The translations under genes were made by a program, and so were the position numbers. A stretch of 64,000 nt of DNA, from NCBI GenBank assembly GCA_964387845.1, contig CAYLXA010000005.1:128001-192000 (forward strand). The letters are read 5' to 3'. This document shows positions 1 to 48,259 of this stretch, piece after piece. The notes under the pieces are model-generated. The model had not been told where the DNA came from, searched no databases, and saw nothing but the letters and a program-made list of their open reading frames with translations. Each line of letters begins with the position of its first letter. The stretch's first letter is position 1. Source of the DNA: an uncultured bacterium. GTDB lineage: Bacteria; Omnitrophota; Omnitrophia; Omnitrophales; Abzuiibacteriaceae.

Positions 1-485
1 AGCCCTTTCTTATCTTTGCTTAAAGAAAGCCGTTCAAAAAGCAGGGAACCCTTTTGACGCTCCAATTCCCGGACTGACCAATTGTTTTTGACACATTCAA
101 TTTCATAAAAGGAGCGTGCCTCCGGTCGTTCGACGCGCATTAAAATCCGGTAATGTGTCCAGCTCAATTCGTGACGCAGTGCGTCACGAATTGGGAAGGT
201 AAGATAAAACTGACGAATATATCGCAAATTCGAATCATCAAAGCCTCTCCCAAAATCTCTTGTTAGTTTTTCCGAAAGCGACTTCAATAACGTCTCACCG
301 TAAGTGGCACGTTTTTGGCCTTTTTGTTCTTCTTCCACAATTTCACGGCCGATTAACCAATAGGCCTGCACCATTTCGGTGTTGACGGTACGCGCAATGT
401 TGGAACGTGCCGATTCTATGATCTGACGGATTTTGGAATAGACTTGGTCTTGCTTTGAGTTTTTCTTTTGAACTTCTTGCGGCAT
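1..485 (-). CDS. YhcG/DUF1016-family (PD-(D/E)xK nuclease-like) protein, N-terminal ~160 aa; gene continues beyond window start
   Basis: rc translation from ATG (483-485) with GGGAGGG RBS gives MPQEVQKK...VQAYWLIGREIVEEEQKGQKRATYGETLLKSLSEKLTRDFGRGFDDSNLRYIRQFYLTF..., matching the conserved DUF1016 N-terminal region; frame stays open to position 1, so it is missing from the ORF track. Confidence 0.6.
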   Translation of the reverse strand, partial: MPQEVQKKNSKQDQVYSKIRQIIESARSNIARTVNTEMVQAYWLIGREIVEEEQKGQKRATYGETLLKSLSEKLTRDFGRGFDDSNLRYIRQFYLTFPIRDALRHELSWTHYRILMRVERPEARSFYEIECVKNNWSVRELERQKGSLLFERLSLSKDKKG

Positions 486-789
486 GAGTAATTTGCCCTC
501 CCTTTTTTGGTAGCCCTTCCGCCTTTTGGCTTCAGGACGATGCTTCTAACTGCGTGAAGCATCGGGCAAATCACTTAATGTGGTGTCTTTATGCGATGAT
601 CGCAACCCTGTCCCAGCGCCACTTTGAAACAAAAACTTGTTTCTAATCAAAGCGCTGGACTGGACTCATTTCCTATAGACCGAACGGTTCCATTAATGAA
701 AATGAGTCCTGGTACTGCTTGATGCGAGAGTGAAGGATATCATATGTCCGGTCCGTATCAAAATGATTTTTTTCAGTTAAATTAATCCC

Positions 790-905
790 GAAAGGGTATA
801 TTTTATTAATTCGAGTTAAATATTATACCTTATAAGGTATAATATTTTTAAATTATACCAAAAAAGGTATAATATTTTACTAAAGTAGTTGATATTATAC
901 CCTTA
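790..905. promoter_or_regulatory. Three palindromic operator-like sites (AAATATTATACCT-n-AGGTATAATATTT and two variants) overlapping a sigma70-like promoter (TTGATA ... TGgTATACT) upstream of the hipB-like gene
   Basis: direct reading of inverted repeats at ~816-850, 851-878, 889-915. Confidence 0.5.
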
Positions 906-1145
906 ATGGTATACTATTCTGCCATGGATTACATTGGAGAAGAAATTCAAAATTTGCGTAAAAGAGCAGGGCTCACTCAACGAGAATTCGCGAAGCGAGT
1001 GGGTGTGGGGCTTAGATTTATTCGTGATCTTGAACAAGGAAAATCTACCGTACGGCTTGATAAGGTAAATCAGGTGCTTGAATTTTTAGGGCATCATTTG
1101 GAGATTGTTGCCAACCGTGAACGAAAAAATATTCAGAAAAGCTAG
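906..1145 (+). CDS. HTH XRE-family regulator, HipB-like antitoxin/repressor
   Basis: 79 aa with helix-turn-helix LTQREFAKRVGVGLRFIRDLEQG; first gene of three-gene hip-like operon. Confidence 0.7.
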   Translation: MVYYSAMDYIGEEIQNLRKRAGLTQREFAKRVGVGLRFIRDLEQGKSTVRLDKVNQVLEFLGHHLEIVANRERKNIQKS

Positions 1146-1461
1146 AGTTAACTACAAAGATGAACTTGCCGGTTATTTACAAGAAACCGAGAATGGTTTT
1201 CAATTTCTGTATGATGAAAATTATTTGCGTTCCGGCGGACAGCCAATTTCTGTGTCACTTCCTTTAACGAATGAGCCTTACGAATCAAAAGAGCTTTTTA
1301 GTTTCTTCCGCGGACTTTTGCCGGAAGGTTGGTACCTCGATATCGTGAGTGCGGCTAAGAAAATCGATACCAATGATTCTTTCGGCCTGCTTCTGGCTAC
1401 CACAGGCGACACGATCGGCGCAGTGACCGTATATCCAATCCGGGAAAGCGATGAGTCCTAA
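1105..1461 (+). CDS. HipS-like protein (stand-alone HipA N-terminal subdomain)
   Basis: 118 aa with HipA N-terminal/coupling-domain features (LPEGW, GxDxxGA); overlaps hipB 3' end and the downstream kinase gene start; alternative GTG start at 1114. Confidence 0.6.
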   Translation: MLPTVNEKIFRKARVNYKDELAGYLQETENGFQFLYDENYLRSGGQPISVSLPLTNEPYESKELFSFFRGLLPEGWYLDIVSAAKKIDTNDSFGLLLATTGDTIGAVTVYPIRESDES

Positions 1462-2311
1462 TCTGTTTGAAGAAATGTTTGGCACGAGCGAAGCTCCTAC
1501 AATCCCACTTTCGTTGAAGGATGTTCCTCTTCAAGCGCAAGTGATGGCGGGGTATATGTCCATTTCAGGGGTGCAGCCAAAATTGGTGCTGAAATTGGAT
1601 AAGCGTAAAAATGAGCTGACGGTGGCTCAGACGGATGGTGAATATATTTTAAAACCGCAAATCCCGCATTTCCCCCAGACGCCCGAAAATGAAAACTGCT
1701 GTATGGATATCGCTCAGGCGTTTGAGATTGAGGTGCCGCCCCATTGCCTTCTTCCACTGAAAGACGGAAGCCTGGCTTATGCGGTGAAGCGTTTCGATCG
1801 TGTGAGCGGCGAAAAAATCAATCAAGAAAGCTTTTATCAAATTCTTGAAAAAAGAGACAAATATATGGGCTCTCTGGAACAAATCGGTAACAGCCTGAAA
1901 CAAATTTCCGTAGTGCCGGGCCTGGATGTTCAGCTTTTCTTTGAATTAGTCGTTTTCAATTTTCTGATCGGCAATGGTGACGCGCATTTTAAAAATTACT
2001 CCATTTCTTATTTAAAGGATGGCATCCGGCTTTCTCCGGCCTATGATCTGGTTTGTTCCAAGCTGGTGATTCCGGGCGATTCGGATTCCGCACTCACGAT
2101 CAATGGCAAGAAGAATAATCTTAGGCGGGGCGATTTTGATGTGTTGGCTGCTTATTTAAAAATTCCGGAAAAGGTTCGTTACGATAAGTTTGCAGGTCAG
2201 CTTGGAAAAATGGAGCAATTGATTCGAGCCAGCCAACTCTCGGCAGATTTTAAAAAGACGTTTATTCAAATAGTTTCTTCACGTTTTGATCGGCTTAAAT
2301 TGGTGAATTAA
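1451..2311 (+). CDS. HipT-like Ser/Thr kinase toxin (HipA C-terminal kinase domain)
   Basis: 286 aa; Gly-rich loop MSISGVQPK (SIS motif) and catalytic GNGDAHFKNYS motif typical of HipA_C. Confidence 0.75.
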   Translation: MSPNLFEEMFGTSEAPTIPLSLKDVPLQAQVMAGYMSISGVQPKLVLKLDKRKNELTVAQTDGEYILKPQIPHFPQTPENENCCMDIAQAFEIEVPPHCLLPLKDGSLAYAVKRFDRVSGEKINQESFYQILEKRDKYMGSLEQIGNSLKQISVVPGLDVQLFFELVVFNFLIGNGDAHFKNYSISYLKDGIRLSPAYDLVCSKLVIPGDSDSALTINGKKNNLRRGDFDVLAAYLKIPEKVRYDKFAGQLGKMEQLIRASQLSADFKKTFIQIVSSRFDRLKLVN

Positions 2312-2339
2312 GCGCGCTGAGCCCGGCACGATTAGAACA

Positions 2340-2470
2340 GGTACCAAAACATTACAAAGTAGTTAATCTAATTTCCTTATATTCACAGTTAAAATATGTA
2401 TATTTATATACATATATATGTATTGAATAGTACATTTATATGTATATAATAATACATATTATATTTGACA
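2340..2470. promoter_or_regulatory. AT-rich region with several ATGTATAT..ATATACAT-type palindromes (candidate operators/promoter) upstream of an unknown two-gene module
   Basis: palindromes atgtatatttatatacat, acatatatatgt, tacatttatatgta read directly. Confidence 0.35.
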
Positions 2471-2480
2471 TTAACACTTT

Positions 2481-2909
2481 TTGAGGGTAGATTTTCTCGT
2501 ACCGGAGGAAGCTGAATATACTAGATTAGTCAAATTTATGACCGCGGCCGGCTATAAACAAGTGACAGGCTATGGTTGGCAGAAAAAAGGAGAGGCAATC
2601 ATTTTTGATCTTTATGTCGGTAATTCGGTTTATTCAACGGAATTATTGTCATCGCCGCTTGAAAAAGGCGGCCATCAGAAATTGAAGGAATGGAATAAAA
2701 TTTATTTAGGTGCTTTAAATCCGGTAGATCTGATTATTTCAAAAATGTTTCGCGGCAGCGAAGTGGATGTCCAGGACAGTTTAGCGTTACTCAAGCATGA
2801 GAAAATTAGTATTGAGGAATTAAAGAAACGATACATCAAAACAGCCAAATATGATGTAAGCGAAGACAGGGTATTGAAAAATTTAGATACATTACTCAGG
2901 AGGCTTTAA
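2481..2909 (+). CDS. hypothetical protein (TTG start); possibly nucleotidyltransferase/AbiE-like, unassigned
   Basis: 142 aa ORF, 3-nt gap to next gene (operon). Confidence 0.4.
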   Translation: MRVDFLVPEEAEYTRLVKFMTAAGYKQVTGYGWQKKGEAIIFDLYVGNSVYSTELLSSPLEKGGHQKLKEWNKIYLGALNPVDLIISKMFRGSEVDVQDSLALLKHEKISIEELKKRYIKTAKYDVSEDRVLKNLDTLLRRL

Positions 2910-2911
2910 TC

Positions 2912-3583
2912 ATGGATAAAAGTGATTTGTTGGACCAATTGGCTCAGCATGGCTATTCATTGATGAAGCCAAAATCAGCCGAGCCGGCCGAAAAACTGCT
3001 GGAGGCATTGCTGAAGCAGGATGATGCGCGTCTTTTGGAGGGCTTTCCGGTGGTGTTGGCCAACGCGTTTGACCAAAAAGACGGCTTGACGTGGGAAAAT
3101 CCTAAATGGAATGCTGAGGAATGGCAGGGAAAAAACAGAAGAAAATTGGTGGCCATGCTGTCTTTTAGTTATTATTTGTTTCGTTTATTTGGATTGGCGG
3201 AGTCTGAAAAGAAAGTTTTAGATTTGGTCAAGAAATTAAAAGGGGATAAAACGCTTCTTCATTTAACCGAATCTTTTGCGGAGTCCAAAGAAGTAGACTT
3301 GGACGGTGTCTCGCTATCAACGGAAAGATTAAAAAGCGCTTTCCGCCAATATGTATTAACGTCGGATCAAGGCGACGAAGTCGAAAAAAAGAAACGCGCG
3401 TTGGAATTAGAGCTGCTGCTTTCCGAACTGTTCAGCACGCGGCAAAAAGAACTGCTTGAGAAGCGGCTTGGTGGGGAGGAATTCACCAAAACAGAGCGTG
3501 AATACTATTACCGCGTCGTCAAAAAACGCTTGAAAGCGCTCGCGAGTGACGAACTTCACCAGATGGCCCGTTCGTTGGTTTAG
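2912..3583 (+). CDS. hypothetical protein (helical, coiled-coil-rich C-terminus)
   Basis: 223 aa ORF translationally coupled to preceding gene. Confidence 0.45.
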   Translation: MDKSDLLDQLAQHGYSLMKPKSAEPAEKLLEALLKQDDARLLEGFPVVLANAFDQKDGLTWENPKWNAEEWQGKNRRKLVAMLSFSYYLFRLFGLAESEKKVLDLVKKLKGDKTLLHLTESFAESKEVDLDGVSLSTERLKSAFRQYVLTSDQGDEVEKKKRALELELLLSELFSTRQKELLEKRLGGEEFTKTEREYYYRVVKKRLKALASDELHQMARSLV

Positions 3584-3595
3584 GGCGGGGGGTGT

Positions 3596-3628
3596 GGCTT
3601 GAAGCTTGAAGCTTGTAGCCTGCAGCCC
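3596..3628. repeat. tandem heptamer array (GCTTGAA GCTTGAA GCTTGTA GCCTGCA), family A intergenic element
   Basis: 7-nt periodicity read directly. Confidence 0.6.
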
Positions 3629-3647
3629 ACAATCCTATCCGCCGAGC

Positions 3648-3667
3648 CTTACCCCTTACCCCTAAGT
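3648..3667. repeat. heptamer half-element (TTACCCC)x2, inverted partner of 9827-9862
   Basis: CCTTACCCCTTACCCCTAAG; its reverse complement TAGGGGTAAGG recurs at 9826. Confidence 0.5.
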
Positions 3668-4014
3668 TTCAATCTGGACACAAAGCTTTTTGAGGCATAA
3701 ATCCTACTTAAATTGTGCCTGTACCTGTCCACCAAAATGATGCCTGGCACCTTTCTGTTAAGGATTCATATGCAACTCCTTTTTCCTGTAACATCAGGAT
3801 ATCAGGTGTTGCACTAGTAACTTGAACTCAAGCAGGTACCGAAGTAGAAATCCACTTCCTATCCGCTATACGTTGTTCGCGAACCAATAAAATAGTTGTT
3901 GAAATATAATATAAAGATTGTAAAATAATTACCTCACGCAAACAGTAAACCCCTCTCACGCCTTCACGCGCAAAATCAAACTAATTTCGTAATGCGTTCA
4001 CAAGAAAGGCGGAT

Positions 4015-4809
4015 TTGCCAATGAAAAAAGAAAAACTCATTTCTCAGAGGGATGGTTTACCAATTCGTTCAAGCGGTCCTTGGATCCGCAAAAAACATCA
4101 CTATTTAATCAGATATGCTGACATATTTACCCGAGGGATGAAGAACAAATGGGAATTGACGTACCTTGATCTTTTTGCCGGGCCCGGATGCTGCTTAATT
4201 GAGAAAGAGATGATCGAATTAGCCGGATCTCCGTTACTTGCATTAGGTTTTGATTTTAGGAAATACATTTTTATTGAACAGGATCATGATGACCTTGAAG
4301 CATTGAAACAGCGGTGCTCAAAATCACCAAAACTAAGCCAGATTCAATTCATAGAAGGGGATTGTAATAAGAATATTGATCAAATTCGATTGACGGGATT
4401 AACGCTGGCTTTTATCGATCCAACTGGTATTGACGTTCATTTTGAAACGATTAAACGACTCACCTCTTTAGGGCCGGTGGACCTGCTAATAAACATACCA
4501 TTTCACATTGATATCAAGCGCAACTTCACGAAGTATATAAAAACCCAACATAAAAAATTGGATCTCTTTCTTGGCGGTAAGGTACCGTGGGATAAATTGC
4601 ATCAAGAAAGGGATGTTTTAGAGTTATACAAAAAGCGAATAAAGGATTTGGGGTATCAAACCGTAGAATACAGCGACATAGTTGTCAGTAATACAAACAA
4701 AGTTCCTATGTACTTTCTTTTCTTTGCGTCCAAGCATTCGCGTGGTGTAGAATTCTGGAAGAAAATTACCAAGAAAGACGAAACCGGACAACTGGAGTTA
4801 GAACTCTAA
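4015..4809 (+). CDS. three-Cys-motif partner protein TcmP-like (class I SAM-MTase-like motifs)
   Basis: 264 aa; N-terminus matches TcmP family pattern; DLFAGPG (motif I-like) and FIDPTG (DPPY-like motif IV); immediately upstream of DUF5131 gene. Confidence 0.55.
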
Positions 4810-4811
4810 GA

Positions 4812-5570
4812 ATGAGCGATAAATCAAATATCGAATGGACCGACGCGACATGGAATCCGGTAACGGGATGCAATAAAATCAGCCCCGGATGTAAAAACTG
4901 CTACGCCGAAACTTTCGCTGAGCGCTGGCGGGGAATTCCGGGCCATCCCTACGAACAGGGTTTTGACCTCAGATTATGGCCTGAGCGTGTCGGCTTGCCA
5001 TTATCGTGGAAAGAGCCGCGGATGATTTTTGTCAATTCCATGTCTGATCTTTTTCATAAAGATGTTCCGGATGACTTTATAGGGAAAGTATTTGAAACGA
5101 TGCTCAAAGCTAATCAGCATACTTTCCAGGTTCTGACCAAGCGGCCTGAGCGCATGGTTGAATGGACCAAGAAAACATTCGGCAATCAAAAATTACCGCG
5201 TCATATCTGGCTTGGTGTTTCGGTTGAAAACCAGGATTACGTATGGCGAATCATGTATCTTCAGCAAACACCGGCTCAAATCCGTTTTCTTTCGGTTGAG
5301 CCTCTTTTGGGGCCTGTTGTTTTAAAATCTTCAAATTTAAAAGGCATTCATTGGGTGATCGTGGGTGGCGAGAGCGGACACAGAGCCCGTCCTATGAATC
5401 CCGACTGGGCGCGTGATATCCGCAATCAATGCGAAAAATATGGCGTCGCTTTTTTCTTCAAACAATGGGGCGCTTTTAACGCGAAAGGCGAACGCGTTGG
5501 TAAAAAAGCCGCCGGCCGGGTTCTCGACCGCAGAACCTGGAACGAAATGCCAATTACAATCCCCGCCTAG
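4812..5570 (+). CDS. DUF5131 / phage Gp37-Gp68 family three-Cys-motif protein
   Basis: 252 aa; [27 protein letters not shown] signature (C-x6-C-x2-C). Confidence 0.65.
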
Positions 5571-5593
5571 AATCCATCTCTCGTGGTTTAAAC

Positions 5594-5626
5594 GAGAAGC
5601 TTGTAGCCTGTAGCTTGCAGCTTATC
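5594..5626. repeat. tandem heptamer array (GAAGCTT GTAGCCT GTAGCTT GCAGCTT), family A
   Basis: read directly. Confidence 0.55.
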
Positions 5627-5744
5627 ATCATGATATAATTCCTATCGCGACGGCGCCCACATTGACCGCCGCGTGATGGCACTTGCGCCAGCGTTACCGC
5701 AGGTGCCTGCGAACGAAGTGACGCAGAATAAAGCGCAAGTGTCT

Positions 5745-6092
5745 ATGTCCGACATCAAGAAACTCACCGAAAAGATCAAGCAATTCCGCGACGAACGGGA
5801 TTGGAAGCAATTCCACAACCACAAAGATATGGCACTTTCACTTGTTCTTGAAGCCGCTGAACTTTTAGAACATTTCCAGTGGAAAACATTGGATGAAGTT
5901 GAAAAGCACGTGAAAACCTCAAAAGAGGATGTTTCAGATGAGCTTGGCGATGTCGCGATCTATCTTTTCGAGCTCGCCGATAACTTAGGGATAGACCTAT
6001 CAGAAGCGGTAGAAAGCAAGCTTCTTAAGAATGCCAGAAAATATCCTATACAAAAATCTAAAGGCACCATAACCAAGTACAATCAATTGTAA
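5745..6092 (+). CDS. MazG-like nucleotide pyrophosphohydrolase
   Basis: EHFQWK..E.ELGDV..YL..LA..LGIDL..A...KL.KN..KYP MazG signature; start taken at internal ATG 5745 (ORF track 5673). Confidence 0.65.
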   Translation: MSDIKKLTEKIKQFRDERDWKQFHNHKDMALSLVLEAAELLEHFQWKTLDEVEKHVKTSKEDVSDELGDVAIYLFELADNLGIDLSEAVESKLLKNARKYPIQKSKGTITKYNQL

Positions 6093-6099
6093 AGATTAA

Positions 6100-6876
6100 A
6101 TGCCCGGCAATGAATCTGCAGTAATAAAGTATTTGTTCAGAAATAAGAATCGTCTCGAGTTACCTCATTTAGGTTTAATAAAATCAATTGGGTTTCCAAA
6201 TGGACTCACAAATAACTACAAAGAAATAAAAAATGAAAATGAAATTTTAGAATGTTGCTCAGACAATGCTCGAAAAAAAGCAGATGTCTATATTAATGGG
6301 CAAGGCGTATCAATAAAACAATCAGGAGGAAGTTTTTCTTTTAATCGTTTGCAGCGTGCCGAGTTAATAGAAGTTTTTGCTAGTTTAATTTTTGATGCCC
6401 CTCATAATGTTTTAACTCAATTAGATAAAGAAGTTGAAAAATTTCATTTTGGAAAATTATCAGGACGTGGTAGGCCGTGGAAAGATTTTTTCTCAAATAA
6501 AGAATTTTATGCTTTAACAAATGCTCTTATGATGTTGCAATCTCCAAATTATGGACTTTCTCTTCATCCCGCTAAATTTATTCTGGAGGCTTCAAAAAAT
6601 TTAACAACCAATCCGAGTTTAAAAGTTTATACTTTTGATGAATATTTTGAACGTTATAACGAGTTTTTCAGGATTGCTATAAGACGTGTTTGGTTGGGGC
6701 AGAATAGTAAATCTGAGCATGGCCGTGCAAAAAGTCTAATAGCAAAACCTGAGAATGCAACCTGGGTCTTTAATACAATTTCCGGAACGCCAAGAAGTGG
6801 TTGGAAAGTTGATTTTCCAAAGTCGGAAAGAAGAACTGTGTATTATTTGATGATAGAAAAAGTAAATTCAAAATGA
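6100..6876 (+). CDS. hypothetical protein; candidate Type II restriction endonuclease of the adjacent vsr-dcm module
   Basis: 258 aa, low GC, 4-bp overlap with vsr; possible D...(V)SIK PD-(D/E)xK-like element; no family recognised. Confidence 0.35.
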   Translation: MPGNESAVIKYLFRNKNRLELPHLGLIKSIGFPNGLTNNYKEIKNENEILECCSDNARKKADVYINGQGVSIKQSGGSFSFNRLQRAELIEVFASLIFDAPHNVLTQLDKEVEKFHFGKLSGRGRPWKDFFSNKEFYALTNALMMLQSPNYGLSLHPAKFILEASKNLTTNPSLKVYTFDEYFERYNEFFRIAIRRVWLGQNSKSEHGRAKSLIAKPENATWVFNTISGTPRSGWKVDFPKSERRTVYYLMIEKVNSK

Positions 6877-7301
6877 CATTTGTATTTCAAACGACAAGTC
6901 AACGCTCCGAGTTAATGAAAAAGATTAAAGGAGTTAACACTAAGCCAGAAATTGCTTTTGCAAAGAAACTTGAATTATACAAAGTCAAGTTTAGAAAACA
7001 TTTTAAAAAACTCCCTGGAGTACCGGATTTTGCTATTTTGAGAGGTAGAGTAGCGGTGTTTATCGATGGGGAGTTTTGGCATGGATACAATTGGGTTAAT
7101 AAAAAGAAAAGGATAAGATCCAACCGACAATACTGGATTAAAAAAATAGAAAGAAATATACTAAGAGATTCGATAAATATGAGAGAATTAAAGAAAATAG
7201 GTTGGTATCCTTTAAGATTTTGGCAGCATGAAGTTGTTGCTGAGGGTGATAAATGTATAAAGAAAATCGAAAAAATAATGCAGCGACGAAGTTCAAAATA
7301 G
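6873..7301 (+). CDS. vsr: very-short-patch-repair endonuclease Vsr
   Basis: TSQRSELM...TKPE...FIDGEFWHG... conserved Vsr core. Confidence 0.8.
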   Translation: MTFVFQTTSQRSELMKKIKGVNTKPEIAFAKKLELYKVKFRKHFKKLPGVPDFAILRGRVAVFIDGEFWHGYNWVNKKKRIRSNRQYWIKKIERNILRDSINMRELKKIGWYPLRFWQHEVVAEGDKCIKKIEKIMQRRSSK

Positions 7302-8383
7302 CATCTTTTTTTGCTGGCTGTGGCGGCCTAGATTTAGGTTTCCAGCAAGCGGGCTTTGATGTTGTTTGGGCAAATGAATACGATAAAACAATTTGGGCTA
7401 CCTACGAACACAACCATCCTCATACGTTTTTATGCAAGAAATCTATTATCGATGTCAAATCAGATGAAATTCCAACTGTTGTTGGCATGATAGGTGGCCC
7501 GCCATGCCAAAGCTGGAGTTTAGCCGGAGCCATGAGGGGAGTAAAAGACCCGCGAGGTAAACTTTTTTATGAATACATAAGAATCTTGGCCGATAAACAA
7601 CCATCATTTTTCTTAGCCGAAAATGTTGCGGGCATTGTTTCTAGCACTCATGTGAATTCATTTGAAAATATCCTTAAAAAATTCGAAGAAATTGGTTACG
7701 TTACTTCATATAAATTGCTTGATGCAAAATCCTACGGCGTTCCTCAGGATCGGAAAAGAGTTATCATTGTAGGGTATTCTAAAGGTTTACATAAGAAATT
7801 TGAATTCCCGCAAGAAACTCATGGTGTAAATTCAGCGAATGGCGACTTATTCAAGCCACATTTAAAACCCTATGAAACTTTACGCTCTGCAATTGACGAT
7901 TTGCCTAATCCGGTGCCTGCTAGTTTGAAAAATAAGTCGAACAGCAGAATTCGTATTCCAAATCACGAATATATGACAGGAGGTTTTTCTACCATTTACA
8001 TGTCACGAAATAGGAGAAGAAATTGGAATGAGCCTTCATTTACAATTCAGGCGGGAGGCCGGCATGCACCGCTACATCCATCAAGCACTGAAATGATTAA
8101 AAAAGAGCCAGATTGGTGGGTATTTAAAAAGAAAGACAAAAAGGCTTATCGGCGAATGTCGGTAAGAGAATGCGCACGAGTTCAAACCTTCCCTGATAAA
8201 TTCATATTCAAATATGATTCAATTGCGGATGGTTATAAAATGGTTGGTAATGCAGTTCCCGTCGAGTTGGCGCGTGTTATAGCATTAAGAATAAAGTCAG
8301 ATTTGATACCAGAGAAAAATAATCTTAAAAGATCATCCCTTCGCAAAACACCCTATTCCGAATTGGTGTTAGCTTCCTCATAA
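7253..8383 (+). CDS. dcm: DNA (cytosine-5)-methyltransferase
   Basis: motif I FAGCGG, motif IV GGPPCQSWS, ENV motif VI, C-terminal target-recognition region. Confidence 0.85.
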   Translation: MYKENRKNNAATKFKIASFFAGCGGLDLGFQQAGFDVVWANEYDKTIWATYEHNHPHTFLCKKSIIDVKSDEIPTVVGMIGGPPCQSWSLAGAMRGVKDPRGKLFYEYIRILADKQPSFFLAENVAGIVSSTHVNSFENILKKFEEIGYVTSYKLLDAKSYGVPQDRKRVIIVGYSKGLHKKFEFPQETHGVNSANGDLFKPHLKPYETLRSAIDDLPNPVPASLKNKSNSRIRIPNHEYMTGGFSTIYMSRNRRRNWNEPSFTIQAGGRHAPLHPSSTEMIKKEPDWWVFKKKDKKAYRRMSVRECARVQTFPDKFIFKYDSIADGYKMVGNAVPVELARVIALRIKSDLIPEKNNLKRSSLRKTPYSELVLASS

Positions 8384-8424
8384 ACCGTAAACTGGACACC
8401 GTCCGGCAGAAAAAAGGTTGTTGA

Positions 8425-9540
8425 ATGAGGCAAATATTCATAGTAGTGGCAGGAGGCAATGCTGCTGCTGATCGTCACTTCGAAGATACAATCCAACGTA
8501 AACGTACCTTAGATGAAGTGCGGCAATTTCTATCTTCCCAAGAAATTCATGAGATCGAATCAGTTTATCATACAGCACCTTTTATTGTCTGGGGCGCTAT
8601 TCCCGGCCCAATGAATATTCCGCGTTGGCAAAGTATGCGTGTTGGCGATATTGTTTTGATTTACACAAGAGGACATATCCGATTAATTGGCGAAGTGGCA
8701 TCAAAAGTAAGAAGTAATTCGTTGGCTCGCTATTTTTGGAAAGAAACACCCGAAAACAAAACCTGGGAATTGATTTATTTTATTGTAAATGAACAAAGGG
8801 TAAATATACCGATGCCTTTATTAAATGAAGCGCTTGGTTATAGCGCAAGTTACTCTCCGAGGGGATTTAGTTCTGTCGATTCTGATAAGGTCAAATCATT
8901 CGTTAATCGTTATGGCGATATATTCGAAGGGCTTAAAACACTCAGTAAAGGCGAGAAACTAATCGAAATTTCGCCAGCGAAAAAGTTAGAAGTCCAACAG
9001 GTTGAAGAAAAGATTGAACAATCATCGAATGAGCATGACGAAATGCAATGGCGGTTAATTAGATTGGGCAAATTGTCAAGGTACGATGTTTGGGTTCCCA
9101 GAAATGATCAAGGGCACAGCTTTGGAGGTCAACGATTTCGGGATTTTGTGTTGCCGGAATTCCACGAGAGTTTAGATGTTCCACCCAGTATTAAAAATAT
9201 CGATGTCGTGTGGAAATTTGGTCCTTATTCGATCACATCTGCATTTGAAGTCGAACATTCAACATCCGTTTATTCAGGAATTTTAAGGCTTTCGGATCTG
9301 AGAACCGAAACACCGAATTCACAATACCCACTTTTTATTGTTGCTGACGAAGCAAGAAAGCGGAAGGTATTTTCGGAACTTGCGCGCCCCACTTTCTCAA
9401 ATCCCTTTTTGCGACTTCACGAAGTAATACGATTTTTGAGTTACGAAAGAATCAGGGACATTGATGAAAAGTATAAGCAAGAACCTGAATTTGAACCGCA
9501 AATACTCTTTACTGCCGGAGAAACTTTCGAGAAAAATTAA
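8425..9540 (+). CDS. hypothetical protein with EVE/PUA-like N-terminal domain and putative PD-(D/E)xK-like C-terminal nuclease domain (candidate modification-dependent restriction enzyme)
   Basis: VGDIVLIYTRGHIRLIGEVASKV resembles EVE core (VGDLVFFYHS..IVGIAEV); C-terminal DVWVP...IDVVWKFGP...AFEVEHS pattern. Confidence 0.4.
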   Translation: MRQIFIVVAGGNAAADRHFEDTIQRKRTLDEVRQFLSSQEIHEIESVYHTAPFIVWGAIPGPMNIPRWQSMRVGDIVLIYTRGHIRLIGEVASKVRSNSLARYFWKETPENKTWELIYFIVNEQRVNIPMPLLNEALGYSASYSPRGFSSVDSDKVKSFVNRYGDIFEGLKTLSKGEKLIEISPAKKLEVQQVEEKIEQSSNEHDEMQWRLIRLGKLSRYDVWVPRNDQGHSFGGQRFRDFVLPEFHESLDVPPSIKNIDVVWKFGPYSITSAFEVEHSTSVYSGILRLSDLRTETPNSQYPLFIVADEARKRKVFSELARPTFSNPFLRLHEVIRFLSYERIRDIDEKYKQEPEFEPQILFTAGETFEKN

Positions 9541-9729
9541 CAAATCGAGGATCTTATCATGATTAAATCAAGAAAATTGAAGGCTGATCTAACCCAGTTA
9601 TTAAATTATCTTTGGCATGACGAGAGAAAACATTATTTGGAGCGGCGAAACAAGAATCATATTTATTTAACAATTCGCAGATTGGCAAAAGAAATTAGTT
9701 ATAAGCCGTAAATCGAACGCGTCTCGACG

Positions 9730-9840
9730 ATGTGCGGAAGATATTCATTAACCCTCGATAAAAAGAAACTCCTCGCGGAATTCGCGCCCGAGCCCCGCGC
9801 CCACAAATTTCTTGATTTCCATTATAGGGGTAAGGATTAA
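9730..9840 (+). pseudogene. 5' fragment of a SRAP (YedK/HMCES, DUF159) gene: MCGRYSLTLDKKKLLAEFAPEPRAHKFLDFH then out-of-family tail and stop
   Basis: MCGR N-terminus with catalytic Cys2 is the SRAP hallmark; only ~31 family-like codons. Confidence 0.55.
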
Positions 9841-9862
9841 GGGGTAAGTCGTAAGTTTTAAG
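9827..9862. repeat. heptamer half-element GGGGTAA GGATTAA GGGGTAA GTCGTAA GTTTTAA, inverted partner of 3648-3667
   Basis: 7-nt periodicity; reverse complement of 3648-3667 motif. Confidence 0.5.
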
Positions 9863-9936
9863 TAGAATTATGCTGATAGTCATACCCCATCCCTCCTAAA
9901 CATTCCCCTTGAACATGTTGTAGTTATGTACTACAA

Positions 9937-10533
9937 TTGTTGTACATCATGACAACAAGTTTAATCTTTCAGCTCCAGCAAACCAAGTCGCCGCTCAGGA
10001 AGAAGCTTTTATCGTACTTCTTCACGAATCCCGGGGCGAAGCTCTATCTCAGAGATATCGCGCTCAAACTCCATGTCGATCCCGCGAATCTTTCGCGCGA
10101 GCTCAAGCGGCTCACCGATGAAAGTGTTTTTGTTGCCCAGAAGCAGGGTAATCTCAAATATTTCTCTTTGAATCCAAAGCACGCCTTATATGAAGAATTT
10201 AAGTCCATGATTTTTAAGACCATCGGCGCTCAAGGCGCGATTGAAAACCTGTTAAGTAAAATCCCGGGAATTAAACGCGCTTTTATTTATGGTTCGTTTG
10301 CCAAAAATACGGAGCGTGCGGATTCCGATATCGACCTTTGTATGATCATCCAAAAAAAAGAATTCAAAGAAAATCCTTTCCTTGAGGGAATTCATAAACT
10401 CGAAGGTGAACTTGGCAGGGAAATCAATTATACTTTCTTTACCGACGAAGAATGGCAGTCCAAGCAGCGATCTAAAGATAGCTTTGTCACCGGAATTCTT
10501 AAGAATAAAAAAATCGATCTCATGCATATATGA
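9937..10533 (+). CDS. minimal nucleotidyltransferase (MNT) with N-terminal winged-HTH, antitoxin-like partner of HEPN
   Basis: AFIYGSFAKNTERADSDIDLCMI NTase motif; wHTH N-terminus; ATGA overlap with next gene. Confidence 0.75.
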   Translation: MLYIMTTSLIFQLQQTKSPLRKKLLSYFFTNPGAKLYLRDIALKLHVDPANLSRELKRLTDESVFVAQKQGNLKYFSLNPKHALYEEFKSMIFKTIGAQGAIENLLSKIPGIKRAFIYGSFAKNTERADSDIDLCMIIQKKEFKENPFLEGIHKLEGELGREINYTFFTDEEWQSKQRSKDSFVTGILKNKKIDLMHI

Positions 10534-10994
10534 AAAAAATTGATCTTCAAGATTTAATTCAAGAAGGGCAGCTTCAAGAAGAGCCAGGTATCGGCTGGGA
10601 CCAGGTGGAGCGTTTAATTAAACGGGCATTTGAAGATTTGAAATCAGCCGACCGGAACATGTCCTTTGATGAGCCGGGCGCGATGGATTTTATCTATAAG
10701 GCGATGTTTCATGCTGGGAACGCTTTGATTCGTTCATATGGGTTTAGGCCGGGCGCTACCAGACAGCATCAAGGTGTGATTACGGCAGTTGGGCGGATCT
10801 TGGGCGTTGAATCAAAGGCGCTGATTCTGAAATTTGATAAACTCAGGAAACGCCGCAATGAGTTTGAATATCAGGGCATTTTTGCGATGGGAAGAGAAGA
10901 GTTGAAAGATTCCATCGAACAAGCCAAACAATTGGTTGGCGTGATACGAAAAGCACTCGAAGATTCTCATCCACAAAAGCAGTTTAAATGGTAA
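10530..10994 (+). CDS. HEPN-domain protein (putative toxin of MNT-HEPN pair)
   Basis: 154 aa helical protein with KRRNEFEY R-x4-6-H-like motif; genetic coupling to MNT. Confidence 0.55.
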   Translation: MKKIDLQDLIQEGQLQEEPGIGWDQVERLIKRAFEDLKSADRNMSFDEPGAMDFIYKAMFHAGNALIRSYGFRPGATRQHQGVITAVGRILGVESKALILKFDKLRKRRNEFEYQGIFAMGREELKDSIEQAKQLVGVIRKALEDSHPQKQFKW

Positions 10995-11024
10995 GCGAAG
11001 ACCATAAAGACGGCGCCGGGCACC

Positions 11025-11107
11025 TGCTACTCATTAACACTCGATAAAAAGAAGCTCCTCGCGGAATTCGCGACGAACCCCGCGCCCACAAATTTCTTGA
11101 TCTCCAT
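11025..11107 (+). pseudogene. second SRAP 5' fragment (CYSLTLDKKKLLAEFATNPAPTNFLISI), start codon lost
   Basis: ~77-bp direct repeat of 9745-9823 at ~90% identity. Confidence 0.5.
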
Positions 11108-11315
11108 CAAAGTTATATATACTATTCACCATAGTAAATAAGCATTAACCCCCTCCTCGCTCAAAGTATTAAATTCTCCAAGCTTCCTCCACATAAAGTC
11201 TCTTTTTTCACTTGCGCTTTATGCGCAAGTACCATCTCTCGAGGCTCAAAGTTAGCCTCGTATTGCTAGGCCGCGTAAACTATGGTTGACACTGTGTAGC
11301 ATATAGGGTACACTT

Positions 11316-11645
11316 ATGATGACTTGGAAAATTTTGCATTACCGGAGGCGCGACGGAAGGATTCCTTTCCAAGAATGGTTTTCCGAATTTTACGATGCTC
11401 GGGTTTGCGCTAGAATTCAATCACGGATTCACAGGTTAGAGCGTGGTAACTTTGGAGATTCAAAGAGCGTAGGTGATGGGCTCTTCGAGTTACGATTTCA
11501 CTTTGGGCCCGGCTATCGCATTTATTATGGAATTCGTCACGGCCGGATTGTTATTTTGCTTTGCGGGGGCGACAAAAGTAGTCAGCAAAAAGATATTCAA
11601 ATAGCAAACGTATATTGGCAGGATTATTTGGAGAGTCAACTATGA
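11316..11645 (+). CDS. RelE/ParE-superfamily addiction-module killer protein (HigB-like, Gp49 family)
   Basis: GDGLFELRFHFGPGYRIYYG...ILLCGGDKSSQQKDI signature. Confidence 0.75.
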   Translation: MMTWKILHYRRRDGRIPFQEWFSEFYDARVCARIQSRIHRLERGNFGDSKSVGDGLFELRFHFGPGYRIYYGIRHGRIVILLCGGDKSSQQKDIQIANVYWQDYLESQL

Positions 11646-11953
11646 GACGATATAAACCGTATGTAGATCATCAGGAATGGTTGTTGAAATCATTAAAGGA
11701 TCCTGAGATGGCTTCTGAATATCTAAATGCCGTGCTAGAAGAGGGTGATAAGCAATTATTTTTGATGGCACTCAAAAATGTGGTGGACGCGCAAGGTGGG
11801 ATGACAAAGATGTCGGATAAATCTAAAATCAATCGTGTGAGCCTTTACAAAATGCTCTCAAAGAACGGAAACCCCGGCTTTGAAAATATTTTGAGATTAC
11901 TTCAAATTGCCGGCATTCGTTTTCGGGTGACACCGCAATCTCGTAGGAAATAA
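11642..11953 (+). CDS. addiction-module antidote protein (HigA-like HTH)
   Basis: FLMALKNVVDAQGGMTKMSDKSKINRVSLYKMLSKNGNPGFENILRLLQIAGIRF matches antidote family; start at ATG 11642 overlapping toxin stop. Confidence 0.7.
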   Translation: MRRYKPYVDHQEWLLKSLKDPEMASEYLNAVLEEGDKQLFLMALKNVVDAQGGMTKMSDKSKINRVSLYKMLSKNGNPGFENILRLLQIAGIRFRVTPQSRRK

Positions 11954-12154
11954 TTGCTGCACACTCACGCTTGATGCGTGAGTGCTAAATCCGTAGAGAA
12001 ACCACAAGTTTCTCACGGATAATACTTGCACATAGGTGCAAGTGCATCCGCGCGGCGTGGTTGACAATCCACACCTAATTCTGTATGATACTTCATCGGT
12101 GCACGAAGTATTGAATTACAGATGTAAAACCCACCGATTAGTTCAATTAATCCA

Positions 12155-12280
12155 AGTAAAAATTCAAAATCTAAATATCAAAATTCAAAACAATTATTAA
12201 ATTCCAAATTCAAAACGTTTTGAAATTTAATATTTGTAATTTGAATTTGTTTTATGTTTTGATATTTGAATTTTGAAATT
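12155..12280. repeat. long AT-rich imperfect palindrome (CAAAAT/ATTTTG-rich arms centred on CAAAACGTTTTG) immediately upstream of guaB-like RBS
   Basis: read directly; ~60-nt arms. Confidence 0.55.
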
Positions 12281-12297
12281 ATATTTGAGGAGCAAAA

Positions 12298-13458: not shown

Positions 13459-13468
13459 CTTAATATTC

Positions 13469-13543
13469 GGGCTTCATGCTGCATGCTACAAGTTACAAGC
13501 TGCAGGTTTGAAGCTTGGAGCCTGAAGCCTGTAGCTTTGAAAC
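13469..13543. repeat. heptamer-periodic palindromic element (CATGCTG CATGCTA CAAGTTA CAAGCTG / TTTGAAG CTTGGAG CCTGAAG CCTGTAG), family A
   Basis: read directly. Confidence 0.6.
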
Positions 13544-15101: not shown

Positions 15102-15231
15102 AGTTTAGCGGTTAGCGAATAGCGTTTAGCGCATAGAAAAACAAACGAGACCATTTTTGTGAGAACTCATTTTTATTCTTTTCATTTTGTTTTTTCAGTT
15201 ATACGCTATCCGCTAGACGCTATACGCTAAT
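15102..15231. repeat. heptamer hairpin element, family B: TTTAGCG GTTAGCG AATAGCG TTTAGCG ...65-nt spacer... TATACGC TATCCGC TAGACGC TATACGC
   Basis: read directly. Confidence 0.6.
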
Positions 15232-15235
15232 AGTT

Positions 15236-35932: not shown

Positions 35933-36025
35933 TAAGTGGTAAGTGGTAAGTTTGGATGAACCAGTCAAACTTGATTAAAATTTTATTTTTACTTATCACT
36001 TACAACTTACAACTTACAACTTAAA
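35930..36025. repeat. heptamer hairpin element, family D: GTGGTAA GTGATAA GTGGTAA GTGGTAA ... TTATCAC TTACAAC TTACAAC TTACAAC
   Basis: read directly; supplies hemDE codons SGK + TGA. Confidence 0.65.
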
Positions 36026-36035
36026 ACTGGAAAAT

Positions 36036-47689: not shown

Positions 47690-48125
47690 AAGGCTTTTCT
47701 CGGTAGATGATCGCCTGCTGCATTTTGCAGTGGGAGGAAAGTCCGAACTTCACAGGGCAAGGCGCCCCGTAATACGGGGTGGGGCGGGAGCAAATCCCGC
47801 TTTAAGGAAAGTGCCACAGAGATTATACATCCGAAGTGGTAAGTGATAAGTGGTAGGTGGTAAATAGTAAATAAAGGAGTTATTGGCTTCTCATCAACTT
47901 AGCACTTACAACTTATCACTTACTACTGGATAAAGGTGAAACGGTGGCGTAAGAGACCACCGTGTATCGGCGTAAGCTGGTATGCAAGGTAAACCCCGCC
48001 TGAAGAAAGATGAAGATCGCGCAAGTTGACTTGTTCAGCTCAGGGCGGCCCGTTCTGCGCGCGTCTAACAAGATCGAATGACCCGAGGTTGCAAAATCCG
48101 GGCTAGACAGATGATCATCGCTTCT
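47690..48125 (+). ncRNA. rnpB: RNase P RNA (bacterial type A) with heptamer-repeat hairpin in P12 position
   Basis: P4 GGAGGAAAGUCCG; GGUGAAACGGUGGCGUAAGAGACCACC; AAUCCGGGCUAGACAG 3' P4 strand; boundaries approximate. Confidence 0.8.
47836..47928. repeat. family D heptamer hairpin (GTGGTAA GTGATAA GTGGTAG GTGGTAA ... CTTACAA CTTATCA CTTACTA) inside rnpB
   Basis: read directly. Confidence 0.65.
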
Positions 48126-48127
48126 TC

Positions 48128-48212
48128 AGTTGTAAGTGATAAGTGATAAGTGGTAAGTTGTAAGTTTTAAGAATTCATAAACTTATCACTTAAAACTTAC
48201 CACTTACAACTG
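48128..48212. repeat. family D heptamer hairpin immediately 3' of rnpB
   Basis: GTTGTAA GTGATAA GTGATAA GTGGTAA GTTGTAA ... rc arm. Confidence 0.65.
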
Positions 48213-48259
48213 GGGAAGAAACAGAATTCGGCTTATGCCGAGAAAAGCCTCTCTTTTTT

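What the first reader, a model, noticed from the sequence alone, without database searches (positions are those of the whole stretch)
3648..9862. Inverted heptamer half-elements bracket the 6.2 kb TcmP-MazG-RM island
CCTTACCCCTTACCCCTA at 3648 and its reverse complement TAGGGGTAAGGatTAAGGGGTAAG at 9826 sit in outward-facing, terminal-inverted-repeat-like orientation. They flank TcmP, DUF5131, MazG, the putative REase, vsr, dcm and the EVE-like nuclease. The enclosed DNA is markedly AT-richer than the flanks. Either a mobile or inverted segment is delimited by repeats, or two unrelated copies of the heptamer-element family landed here by chance.
Basis: seen in the sequence. Interest (0 to 1): 0.5.

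Follow-up and report, generated by a model that had tools for sequence, protein, structure and literature searches.

The report
Chance repeats in mosaic defence island
The two short inverted repeats are real, but they are stray single copies of a 7-base repeat family common in this Omnitrophota genome, and they sit at two unrelated seams of a patchwork of defence genes rather than marking the ends of one mobile or invertible 6.2 kb element.

Summary
The match is weak: 11 nt exact, 16 of 18 extended. It is one of 32 inverted pairs of that quality lying 0.5-10 kb apart in the window; block shuffles give 6-12. The right copy matches heptamer hairpin arms 26-38 kb away better than it matches the left copy.

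There is no target-site duplication and no transposase, integrase or invertase. The block is only about 2 GC points below its flanks (0.397 against 0.420 and 0.414).

The enclosed DNA is not one unit:
- One relative has the left-flank gene followed directly by MazG, with no TcmP-DUF5131.
- Another has MazG directly followed by the EVE/NmeDI_C nuclease, with no REase-Vsr-Dcm.
- TcmP-DUF5131 and NTase-HEPN each occur alone elsewhere.

The real island is about 12.9 kb of defence and toxin-antitoxin modules between groEL and an IMPDH-family gene. Those two genes are adjacent in several relatives.

The two repeats are orphan arms of a genome-wide heptamer-hairpin family. That family normally fills intercistronic spacers and even sits inside the RNase P RNA gene. 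Verdict: the bracketing is coincidental and the finding as stated is ordinary. A role for heptamer arrays as recombination seams remains an untested minority possibility.

The parts
3597..3626 (.). Orphan heptamer array (a), GCTTGAA/GCCTGCA type. It starts 14 nt after the stop of the 223-aa gene.
   Evidence: TRF. The lag-7 scan found no inverted partner within 150 nt (score 7, against 11 or more for all core arrays). It matches arrays at 58445, 13505, 49131 and 50194.
3648..3665 (+). Left repeat of the finding (b): 2.4 copies of CCTTACC, the NNNCTTA-type arm.
   Evidence: The local fold is no better than shuffles (z 0.28). A possible local 11-bp partner lies at 3589-3599 (read from the sequence and the centroid).
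4015..5570 (+). TcmP (4015-4809) plus DUF5131 (4812-5570): a two-gene candidate defence module, PADLOC PDC-M41/M30.
   Evidence: The pair is found alone in L084-L087. It is absent between the unk223 homologue and MazG in L083.
5593..5626 (.). Orphan heptamer array (c), GCTTGTA type, in direct orientation to (a).
   Evidence: (family D1). The match 3601-3626 against 5596-5621 is 88% identical.
5673..6092 (+). MazG-like pyrophosphohydrolase. The conserved start is probably the Met at 5745.
   Evidence: Pfam PF12643. It is 87% nt identical to L083 1271-1361 and 67% aa identical to the L094 copy, which abuts the NmeDI_C gene.
6100..8383 (+). AT-rich cassette: 258-aa unassigned ORF (candidate REase), Vsr (6873-7301) and C5 DNA methyltransferase (7253-8383).
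   Evidence: Pfam. GC3 is 0.22, 0.29 and 0.33 and segment GC is 0.362. The cassette is absent between MazG and the nuclease in L094.
8425..9540 (+).
   Evidence: PF27126 and PADLOC REase_II. Homologues of 63-79% identity are solitary, with no adjacent methylase, in L094-L101.
9742..9827 (+). Copy A of an ~86-nt direct repeat. The sequence from 9731 reads MCGRY..., a weak SRAP N-terminus. Homology to copy B ends exactly where array (d) starts.
   Evidence: 91% over 81 nt. Pfam SRAP E=0.029.
9826..9862 (+). Right repeat of the finding (d): an orphan TAAGNNN-type heptamer array (TAAGGAT TAAGGGG TAAGTCG TAAGTTT TAAGTAG).
   Evidence: No local partner (score 6.5; fold z -0.16). Its best matches are arms at 48122 (19) and 35915 (18).
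9949..10994 (+). MNT-type nucleotidyltransferase plus HEPN module (PADLOC PDC-M05), bracketed by the 86-nt direct repeats.
   Evidence: Homology to L088-L093 covers only window 9907/9916-10994.
11028..11112 (+). Copy B of the ~86-nt direct repeat.
1..12297 (.). The in-window part of the real island: about 12.9 kb of defence and toxin-antitoxin modules between groEL (about 650 nt left of the window, seen in L082) and the IMPDH-family gene at 12298.
   Evidence: L082 is 100% identical to window 1-3788 and carries groEL. groEL lies 190-300 nt upstream of IMPDH in L007, L030, L032 and L058. No island gene lies upstream of IMPDH in 80 related loci.

Best explanation
The two repeats are independent, degenerate single arms ('orphans') of a repeat family that pervades this Candidatus Omnitrophota genome. 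The family consists of tandem heptamers that normally occur as two inverted arrays forming a long hairpin. These hairpins fill the spacer between consecutive genes. Both copies here belong to the TAAGNNN / NNNCTTA subfamily, and that shared membership is why they resemble each other in inverted orientation.

They sit at two different seams of a roughly 12.9 kb mosaic of defence and toxin-antitoxin modules that has accumulated between groEL and an IMPDH-family gene:
- The left copy lies at the junction between the DUF6036/223-aa pair and TcmP-DUF5131.
- The right copy lies at the junction between a duplicated 86-nt relic and the NTase-HEPN module.

The 6.2 kb between them was assembled from at least three separately inherited pieces: TcmP-DUF5131; MazG plus a solitary NmeDI_C nuclease; and a nested AT-rich REase-Vsr-Dcm cassette. 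It does not move or invert as a unit.

Shown: repeat positions, family membership, lack of local partners, mosaic structure, and the empty groEL|IMPDH arrangement in relatives.
Inferred: that the orphan arms are relics of hairpins truncated when neighbouring modules were gained or lost, and that they have no present function as recombination sites.
For: - Period-7 arrays are a genome feature: 38 sliding windows at lag 7 against 0-3 at lags 4-12.
- Canonical elements are strong hairpins (z -5.6 and -8.7).
- Most begin within about 10 nt of a stop codon, and several also end 3-21 nt before the next start.
- The arrays at 3583-3632, 5590-5626 and 9826-9865 have no inverted partner within 150 nt (scores 6-7). 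Core arrays score 11-23.
- Orphan arrays are common elsewhere: 41 of 98 arrays in 80 related loci.
- The TAAGGGG variant occurs in a normal paired hairpin in L040 9887-9971.
- The b-d match ranks 73rd of 650 arm pairs, and d matches distant arms better. It is one of 32 comparable inverted pairs against 6-12 in shuffles.
- There is no target-site duplication and no recombinase.
- Mosaic structure: L083 has unk223 then MazG 252 nt later. L094 has MazG abutting the nuclease. TcmP-DUF5131 occurs alone in L084-L087. NTase-HEPN occurs alone in L088-L093, with homology limited to 9907-10994.
- GC3 is heterogeneous, 0.22-0.49 inside the block.
- groEL is adjacent to IMPDH in relatives.
Against: - The 9826 array is the single best match in the window for the 3648 array. 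Only these two sites carry CCCCTTA/TAAGGGG, so a specific historical relation is not excluded.
- All orphan arrays in the window lie in the island and none in the core. That hints that junctions and arrays are connected rather than merely co-located.
- No same-species genome was available. The closest relative has 87% IMPDH identity, so no true empty site for the 6.2 kb block could be examined.
- The direction of each indel (insertion here or loss in the relative) is inferred, not shown.
Confidence: 0.8

Rival explanations
1. The 6.2 kb block is a single mobile element, either a non-autonomous transposon or an excisable island. The heptamer arrays would be its terminal inverted repeats, mobilised in trans.
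For: - The arrays are in inverted orientation at the two ends.
- 9826 is the best window-wide match of 3648.
- The Logan assembly of the same sample breaks about 125-150 nt inside the left end, between 3788 and 3814.
Against: - There is no target-site duplication and no transposase or integrase in the whole island.
- The match is at the chance or family level.
- The enclosed genes are split differently in relatives: L083 links an outside gene to an inside gene, and L094 lacks the middle of the block.
- The right array abuts the end of an 86-nt duplication that brackets the neighbouring NTase-HEPN module.
Confidence: 0.03
2. The segment is invertible. Recombination between the inverted arrays flips 3.65-9.86 kb, as in shufflons or phase-variable R-M loci.
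For: Only the inverted orientation of the two arrays.
Against: - No invertase or tyrosine/serine recombinase gene lies in or near the block.
- All genes of the block and both flanks are on the + strand.
- GC skew shows no change of sign that tracks the block: it dips negative in the windows spanning both boundaries, about 3.5-4.25 and 9.5-10.5 kb.
- MazG and the nuclease have the same orientation relative to their neighbours in L083 and L094.
- The two independent assemblies, the window and Logan contigs L001/L082, agree 100% in one orientation.
Confidence: 0.02
3. The two arrays are the cognate arms of one former hairpin. For example, a circular cassette carrying a complete TAAGGGG...CCCCTTA hairpin could have been opened in the loop on integration, leaving the CTTA arm on the left and the TAAG arm on the right. 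Later insertions then blurred the unit.
For: - The CTTA-left / TAAG-right order is what opening a circle in the hairpin loop would give (inference).
- The G-rich variant is shared and occurs only at these two sites in the window.
- 1 of 60 shuffles reaches the observed score.
- Joined, the arms would fold to -26.1 kcal/mol.
Against: - The match is not reciprocal: d matches other arms better.
- The left array has only 2.4 units.
- An equally good local 11-bp partner for the left array exists at 3589-3599.
- No recombinase was found.
- The outside gene unk223 is linked to the inside gene MazG in L083. The left boundary therefore belongs to the TcmP-DUF5131 indel, while the right boundary belongs to the NTase-HEPN indel.
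Confidence: 0.05
4. Heptamer arrays are the preferred breakpoints for gain and loss of defence modules in this lineage, through recombination between dispersed arrays or breakage at hairpins. On this view the arrays are mechanistically tied to the seams, though not as a pair.
For: - All orphan arrays in the window are in the island and all lie at module junctions.
- Direct arrays 3601-3626 and 5596-5621 (88%) flank the interval containing TcmP-DUF5131 and array (b), and TcmP-DUF5131 is missing from that interval in L083.
- Array d begins at the exact end of the 86-nt duplication.
Against: - The junctions of the REase-Vsr-Dcm cassette (6093-6099 and 8384-8424) carry no array.
- Array (a) matches the array at 58445 better than it matches (c).
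- Arrays sit in nearly every intergenic spacer anyway, so co-location with junctions is expected.
- Orphans make up about 40% of arrays in related loci without regard to islands.
- Only three or four cases are available.
Confidence: 0.1

Closest known systems
STRR (short tandemly repeated repetitive) heptamer sequences of heterocyst-forming cyanobacteria, and the contiguous heptamer repeats of Nostoc PCC 7120
   Same: Both are tandem 7-nt units of several sequence families, located in intergenic regions near start codons. Both are present inside the RNase P RNA gene. Here a heptamer hairpin sits at the apex of the helix I take to be P12 (helix naming from my own knowledge) and a second lies near the 3' end. 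The cyanobacterial case is Vioque 1997, NAR 25:3471, cited in PMC4748335. Nostoc repeats near promoters and start codons are described in bioRxiv 10.1101/2022.06.06.494920.
   Different: The phylum is different (Candidatus Omnitrophota). The units are different (TAAGTGG, GCTTGAA, TAGCGTA, GGTATCT). Here the arrays are mostly arranged as inverted pairs that fill intercistronic spacers. No paper in the searchable library links heptamer repeats with Omnitrophota. The two copies in the finding are unpaired.
REP/BIME-type intergenic palindromic repeats of enterobacteria
   Same: Both are dispersed, hairpin-forming, extragenic elements between co-directional genes, with many copies per genome (my own knowledge for REP; for this genome).
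   Different: REPs have a fixed ~35-nt consensus and a dedicated RAYT transposase. Here the arms are built of tandem heptamers whose sequence differs between elements and between relatives at the same spacer. No RAYT-like gene was seen in the window, but this was not searched systematically.
Defence islands and integration hotspots between conserved core genes
   Same: A variable stretch of lower GC packed with R-M, toxin-antitoxin and candidate defence modules lies between two core genes that are adjacent in relatives.
   Different: No integrase, tRNA or att-type flanking repeats were seen for the island as a whole. The modules appear to have been added piecemeal.
TIR-bounded transposons and MITEs
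   Same: Two short inverted sequences lie at the ends of a gene-bearing segment.
   Different: There is no target-site duplication, no transposase and no second copy. The repeat quality is at chance level, and the interior is not inherited as a unit.

Membership tests
TIR-bounded transposable element | Terminal inverted repeats matched beyond chance | tested here: not met
   The match is 16/18. It is one of 32 such pairs at 0.5-10 kb, against 6-12 in shuffles. It ranks 73rd of 650 among heptamer arms. There is no BLAST hit at E<=0.01.
TIR-bounded transposable element | Target-site duplication abutting the termini | tested here: not met
   No direct repeat of 4-12 nt was found for any combination of ends at 3640-3651 and 9843-9867.
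TIR-bounded transposable element | Transposase inside the element, or further copies of the element elsewhere | tested here: not met
   Pfam, NCBIfam and PADLOC on all ORFs found no transposase. The gene set was not found together in any of about 100 fetched loci.
Site-specific invertible segment | Invertase or recombinase gene adjacent to the inverted repeats | tested here: not met
   None lies between groEL and IMPDH.
Site-specific invertible segment | Both orientations present in a population or among relatives | tested here: inconclusive
   The window and Logan contigs L001/L082 agree in one orientation. L083 and L094 are colinear. Raw reads could not be examined.
Heptamer-hairpin repeat family of this genome (STRR-like) | Tandem period-7 array in an intergenic spacer | tested here: met
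   TRF gives period 7 at 3647-3663 (2.4 copies) and 9826-9848 (3.3 copies). The lag-7 scan detects 9826-9865. Both lie between ORFs. The left copy is at the lower limit of detection.
Heptamer-hairpin repeat family of this genome (STRR-like) | Unit sequence shared with other members | tested here: met
   9826-9862 matches arrays at 48147-48171 (92%), 35921-35953, 48188-48207 and 35998-36024. After 9826, the next best match of 3648 is 35931. TAAGGGG/CCCCTTACC arms occur in the L040 hairpin.
Heptamer-hairpin repeat family of this genome (STRR-like) | Inverted partner array within about 150 nt, giving a hairpin more stable than shuffles | tested here: not met
   The partner score is 6.5 for 9826-9865. 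3648-3665 was too short for that scan, and the nearby array 3583-3632 scores 7, against 11 or more for core arrays. Fold z is +0.28 and -0.16. Both are therefore classed as orphan arms.
Defence island at a core-gene hotspot | Flanking core genes adjacent in relatives, the interior absent there, and the interior rich in defence/TA genes with deviant composition | tested here: met
   groEL|IMPDH adjacency is seen in L007, L030, L032 and L058. No island gene was found in 80 loci. PADLOC, Pfam and NCBIfam give hits. GC is 0.40-0.42 against 0.476.
Integron cassette array | IntI integrase and attC sites with conserved R/L boxes at each cassette end | tested here: not met
   No integrase was found. 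Junction sequences are heterogeneous, and two junctions have no repeat at all. attC covariance models were not run.

The most novel reading that the evidence does not exclude
Dispersed heptamer arrays act as the recombination seams through which defence modules are swapped in and out of the groEL-IMPDH hotspot in this Omnitrophota lineage. This could work by homologous exchange between arrays of the same family or by breakage at the hairpins. On this reading the orphan arms at 3597, 3648, 5593 and 9826 are scars of such events. The direct GCTTG arrays at 3601-3626 and 5596-5621 would be the junctions of the TcmP-DUF5131 insertion.
Probability: 0.1. Interest if true: 0.55.

Novelty: not a real feature. 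Interest (0 to 1): 0.15.

Why it matters
As stated, the finding does not matter much: there is no repeat-delimited 6.2 kb mobile or invertible island.

Three things are worth keeping:
- A cleanly documented hotspot. groEL and the IMPDH-family gene are adjacent in relatives and about 12.9 kb apart here. Nested indels show how defence modules are layered: TcmP-DUF5131, MazG plus a solitary NmeDI_C nuclease, REase-Vsr-Dcm, MNT-HEPN and HigB/A-like.
- The background repeat family itself. Heptamer hairpins fill intercistronic spacers, keep their position but change their unit sequence between relatives, and are present inside RNase P RNA. This parallels cyanobacterial STRRs in an unrelated, uncultivated phylum.
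- A caution for scanning. In a genome full of one repeat family, any two copies will look like terminal inverted repeats.

Tried and rejected
- **Syntenic empty site for the 6.2 kb block.** The genome-contig scan with the IMPDH-family protein gave 80 loci, best 87% identity. None has any island gene upstream. Only the empty site of the whole 12.9 kb island could be defined, not that of the block.
- **Exact-protein look-ups.** These found only two Logan contigs of one sample, 100% identical to the window, so no strain variant was obtained.
- **Aligning the L083 intergenic spacer to the window** to locate the TcmP-DUF5131 breakpoints. The best local score was 25, against a shuffle mean of 18.5 and maximum of 34. 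This is not significant.
- **Split-hairpin idea.** I considered that the 6.2 kb had inserted into the loop of one canonical hairpin. I rejected it because canonical elements read TAAG-arm then CTTA-arm on either strand, and here the order is reversed.
- **Array d as part of the NTase-HEPN module.** Rejected because homology with L088-L093 starts only at 9907-9916.
- **RNA-level strand asymmetry of canonical hairpins** (sense against antisense folding energy and G-U pairs). Seven of 12 favour the sense strand, which is inconclusive.
- **Rfam and tRNA scans of the window.** Nothing was found in the island.
- **Literature search for heptamer repeats in Omnitrophota.** No papers were found.
- **Promoter and terminator scan of 3300-10100.** Counts are at shuffle level. 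The best promoter-like site, at 3899-3926, lies upstream of TcmP.

Full report
**Observation**

The two sequences are present exactly as described. CCTTACCCCTTACCCCTA is at 3648-3665 and TAGGGGTAAGGATTAAGGGGTAAG is at 9826-9849, in inverted orientation. The gene content between them is also as described:
- TcmP (TIGR04474, 4015-4809).
- DUF5131 (4812-5570).
- MazG-like (5673-6092).
- An unassigned 258-aa ORF (6100-6876).
- Vsr (6873-7301).
- A C5 methyltransferase (7253-8383).
- A 371-aa protein with an NmeDI_C nuclease domain (8425-9540).

The claim that the enclosed DNA is markedly AT-richer than its flanks does not hold. The block has GC 0.397, the left flank 0.420 and the right flank 0.414. 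The core of the window has 0.476. Only 6100-8424 is clearly lower, at 0.362.

**Is the inverted match more than chance?**

- The longest exact inverted match is 11 nt, and the extended match is 16 of 18.
- The heptamer CCCCTTA occurs twice in the window against 4.3 expected.
- An exhaustive count found 32 inverted pairs of at least 16/18 separated by 0.5-10 kb. Composition shuffles within 2-kb blocks gave 6, 12 and 11. A pair of this quality is therefore expected by chance several times over.
- BLAST at E<=0.01 does not connect the two sites. It does connect 9826-9862 to arrays at 35921, 36024, 48147 and 48207.
- In an all-against-all comparison of 26 heptamer arms, the pair scores 13 and ranks 73rd of 650. 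The right copy matches arms at 48122 (19), 35915 (18) and 48179 (16.5) better than it matches the left copy.
- In favour of a specific relation, 9826 is the best hit in the window for the left copy (13, next best 11). One of 60 composition shuffles reaches 13.
- No direct repeat of 4-12 nt abuts any plausible pair of ends.

**What the repeats are**

The window comes from a Candidatus Omnitrophota genome. The best IMPDH-family matches are 87% and 83% to Omnitrophota MAGs.

The genome is full of tandem heptamer arrays. There are 38 sliding windows with lag-7 periodicity, against 0-3 for lags 4-12.

Outside the island the arrays come as two inverted arrays forming long hairpins. The folding z-scores are -5.6 and -8.7 for the two tested. 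Several unit families occur: TAAGTGG, GCTTGAA, TAGCGTA and GGTATCT.

Most of these hairpins begin within about 10 nt of the stop of the upstream gene, and several also end 3-21 nt before the next start. The three at and just downstream of the RNase P RNA gene and the one at 50156 are exceptions.

Relatives carry heptamer hairpins at the same spacers (IMPDH|GuaA and GuaA|DnaE) but with different unit sequences.

Both copies of the finding belong to the TAAGNNN / NNNCTTA subfamily. A normal paired hairpin with TAAGGGG and CCCCTTACC arms occurs upstream of IMPDH in L040.

Neither copy has a local inverted partner. The right array's partner score is 6.5, and the left copy was too short for that scan. 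The arrays at 3583-3632 and 5590-5626 score 7 and 6. Core arrays score 11-23. The local folds of both copies are no better than shuffles (z +0.28 and -0.16). Both are therefore orphan arms.

Two further orphan arrays of the GCTTGAA family lie at 3597-3626 and 5593-5626.

Orphan arrays are not rare in the phylum: 41 of 98 arrays in 80 related loci lack a partner.

Canonical elements read TAAG-arm, loop, CTTA-arm on either strand. Here the CTTA arm is on the left and the TAAG arm on the right, so the block cannot simply be an insertion into the loop of one hairpin.

**The surroundings**

A Logan contig from sample SRR15237813 (L082) is 100% identical to window 1-3788. It extends leftwards to groEL.

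In L007, L030, L032 and L058, groEL lies 190-300 nt upstream of the IMPDH-family gene. None of 80 related loci has any of the island genes upstream of that gene. Downstream synteny (IMPDH-GuaA-DnaE and onward) is conserved.

The real island is therefore the whole ~12.9 kb between groEL and 12298. In order it contains:
- A DUF1016 gene.
- HTH-HipA.
- DUF6036 plus the 223-aa partner.
- TcmP-DUF5131 (PADLOC PDC-M41/M30).
- MazG.
- The 258-aa ORF, Vsr and Dcm.
- The NmeDI_C nuclease.
- MNT-HEPN (PDC-M05).
- A RelE/HigB-like pair.

No integrase, transposase, invertase or tRNA is present.

**The 6.2 kb block is not a unit**

- In L083, the DUF6036/223-aa pair is 76% nt identical to window 2572-3584. 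It is followed 252 nt later by the 5' end of MazG, which is 87% identical to 5752-5842. In the window these two points are 2168 nt apart, and the difference is TcmP-DUF5131. A gene outside the block is thus linked to a gene inside it.
- In L094, MazG (67% aa) is followed after about 2 nt by the NmeDI_C protein (79% aa). The 258-aa ORF, Vsr and Dcm are absent.
- Homologues of the nuclease at 63-65% identity stand without any methyltransferase in three further contexts. The protein is therefore probably a solitary nuclease, possibly modification-dependent. The 258-aa ORF-Vsr-Dcm segment is probably a separate R-V-M cassette nested between MazG and the nuclease.
- TcmP-DUF5131 pairs occur alone, without heptamer arrays, in four metagenome loci.
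- GC3 is 0.40-0.49 for TcmP, DUF5131 and MazG, and 0.22-0.34 for the 258-aa ORF, Vsr, Dcm and the nuclease. It is 0.49-0.52 for the immediate flanking genes and 0.59-0.60 for the core.

**The right boundary belongs to another event**

An ~86-nt direct repeat (9742-9827 and 11028-11112, 91% over 81 nt) brackets the MNT-HEPN module. Homology between the two copies ends exactly where the 9826 array begins.

Copy A begins with a weak SRAP-like N-terminus, MCGRY.

MNT-HEPN homologues in L088-L093 share only window 9907/9916-10994.

The left repeat therefore sits at the seam of the TcmP-DUF5131 indel, and the right repeat at the seam of the MNT-HEPN indel. These are two different events.

**Inversion**

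All genes of the block and both flanks are on the + strand. GC skew shows no change of sign that tracks the block boundaries, though it dips negative in the windows spanning both of them. L083 and L094 are colinear with the window. Two independent assemblies agree in one orientation.

**Mechanism**

The best-supported reading is that the two repeats are truncated relics of the ordinary intercistronic heptamer hairpins. They were left at junctions when neighbouring modules were gained or lost, and they have no role as ends of an element.

What the hairpins themselves do is not established. A test for sense-strand RNA bias in folding energy and G-U pairs was inconclusive: 7 of 12 favour the sense strand.

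A minority reading is that arrays are themselves recombination seams. In its favour:
- All orphans in the window are in the island.
- Direct GCTTG arrays (3601-3626 and 5596-5621, 88%) flank the interval containing TcmP-DUF5131, which is absent from L083.

Against it:
- The REase-Vsr-Dcm junctions have no arrays.
- Arrays occupy nearly every spacer anyway.
- The case numbers are tiny.

**Comparison with known systems**

The repeat family resembles cyanobacterial STRR heptamers, including presence inside RNase P RNA. It also resembles REP-type extragenic palindromes.

The island resembles defence hotspots between core genes.

The block fails every tested defining feature of a TIR transposon and of an invertible segment.

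**Limits**

No conspecific genome was available, so an empty site for the exact block could not be looked for. The polarity of each indel is inferred.

**Verdict**

Interest in the finding as stated is low.

Noticed in passing
window 47695-48250: The RNase P RNA gene (RF00010, 183.6 bits) is 556 nt against a 367-nt model because two heptamer hairpins lie inside it. One (47830-47927) is at the apex of the helix I take to be P12. The other (48128-48211) is in the region just before the 3' ACAGAA strand. A third hairpin (48254-48344) follows the gene. This parallels STRR heptamers in RNase P RNA of heterocystous cyanobacteria (Vioque 1997), but in Omnitrophota.
   Followed up: partly
window 13465-13540, 15102-15233, 35915-36037, 53024-53112, 58416-58476; L020 11164-11236 and 12781-12878; L027 3020-3108; L048 11158-11272; L003 12931-12964: At these spacers paired heptamer hairpins fill almost the whole gap between co-directional genes, lying within about 10 nt of the upstream stop and ending a few nt before (or just overlapping) the next start. 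Relatives have heptamer hairpins at the same spacers (IMPDH|GuaA, GuaA|DnaE) but with unrelated unit sequences. Position is conserved while sequence turns over.
   Followed up: partly
L030 9788-9990: Between groEL and IMPDH, the two arms of a heptamer hairpin are about 95 nt apart. They enclose what looks by eye like an intrinsic terminator and a TTGACA/TATAAG-type promoter. Arms can therefore bracket functional signals.
   Followed up: no
window 9742-9827 and 11028-11112: An ~86-nt direct repeat (91% over 81 nt) brackets the MNT-HEPN module. Copy A, read from 9731, gives MCGRYSLTLDKKKLLAEF, a weak match to the N-terminus of SRAP/YedK (E 0.029). This suggests a duplicated gene relic at an insertion seam.
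   Followed up: partly
window 3789-3813: The Logan assembly of SRR15237813 breaks here. L082 ends at 3788 and L001 starts at 3814, and both are otherwise 100% identical to the window. The cause could be a coverage drop or a graph branch (population variation) about 125-150 nt right of the left repeat.
   Followed up: no
window 11991-12050; L088 2514-2580: A two-hairpin motif starting CCGTAGAGAAACCNCAAGTTTCTCACGG is shared between the window, downstream of the RelE-like pair, and L088. In L088 it follows a tRNA-Met gene and precedes a repeat of the tRNA 3' end, next to an MNT-HEPN module. It may be an att-site relic or a small RNA.
   Followed up: partly
window 8425-9540; L094-L101: The NmeDI_C-domain protein has 60-79% identical homologues in Omnitrophota and Patescibacteria records and in many unassigned metagenome contigs. 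In the five neighbourhoods examined they are solitary: none lies next to a methyltransferase, and one abuts MazG. It is therefore probably not the cognate REase of the neighbouring Dcm and may be a modification-dependent nuclease.
   Followed up: partly
window 814-920 and 2390-2463: Three copies of a 27-nt palindromic unit (ATTATACC...GGTATAAT) lie just upstream of the HTH-HipA operon and look operator-like. An AT-rich 33-nt inverted repeat lies between HipA and DUF6036.
   Followed up: no
window 12153-12287: An AT-rich heptamer hairpin (arms of 62 nt, 71% complementary; units AAAATTC / TTTGAAT) lies immediately upstream of the IMPDH-family start codon. It is downstream of a TTGACA...TATGAT promoter-like site read by eye at about 12060-12090.
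   Followed up: no
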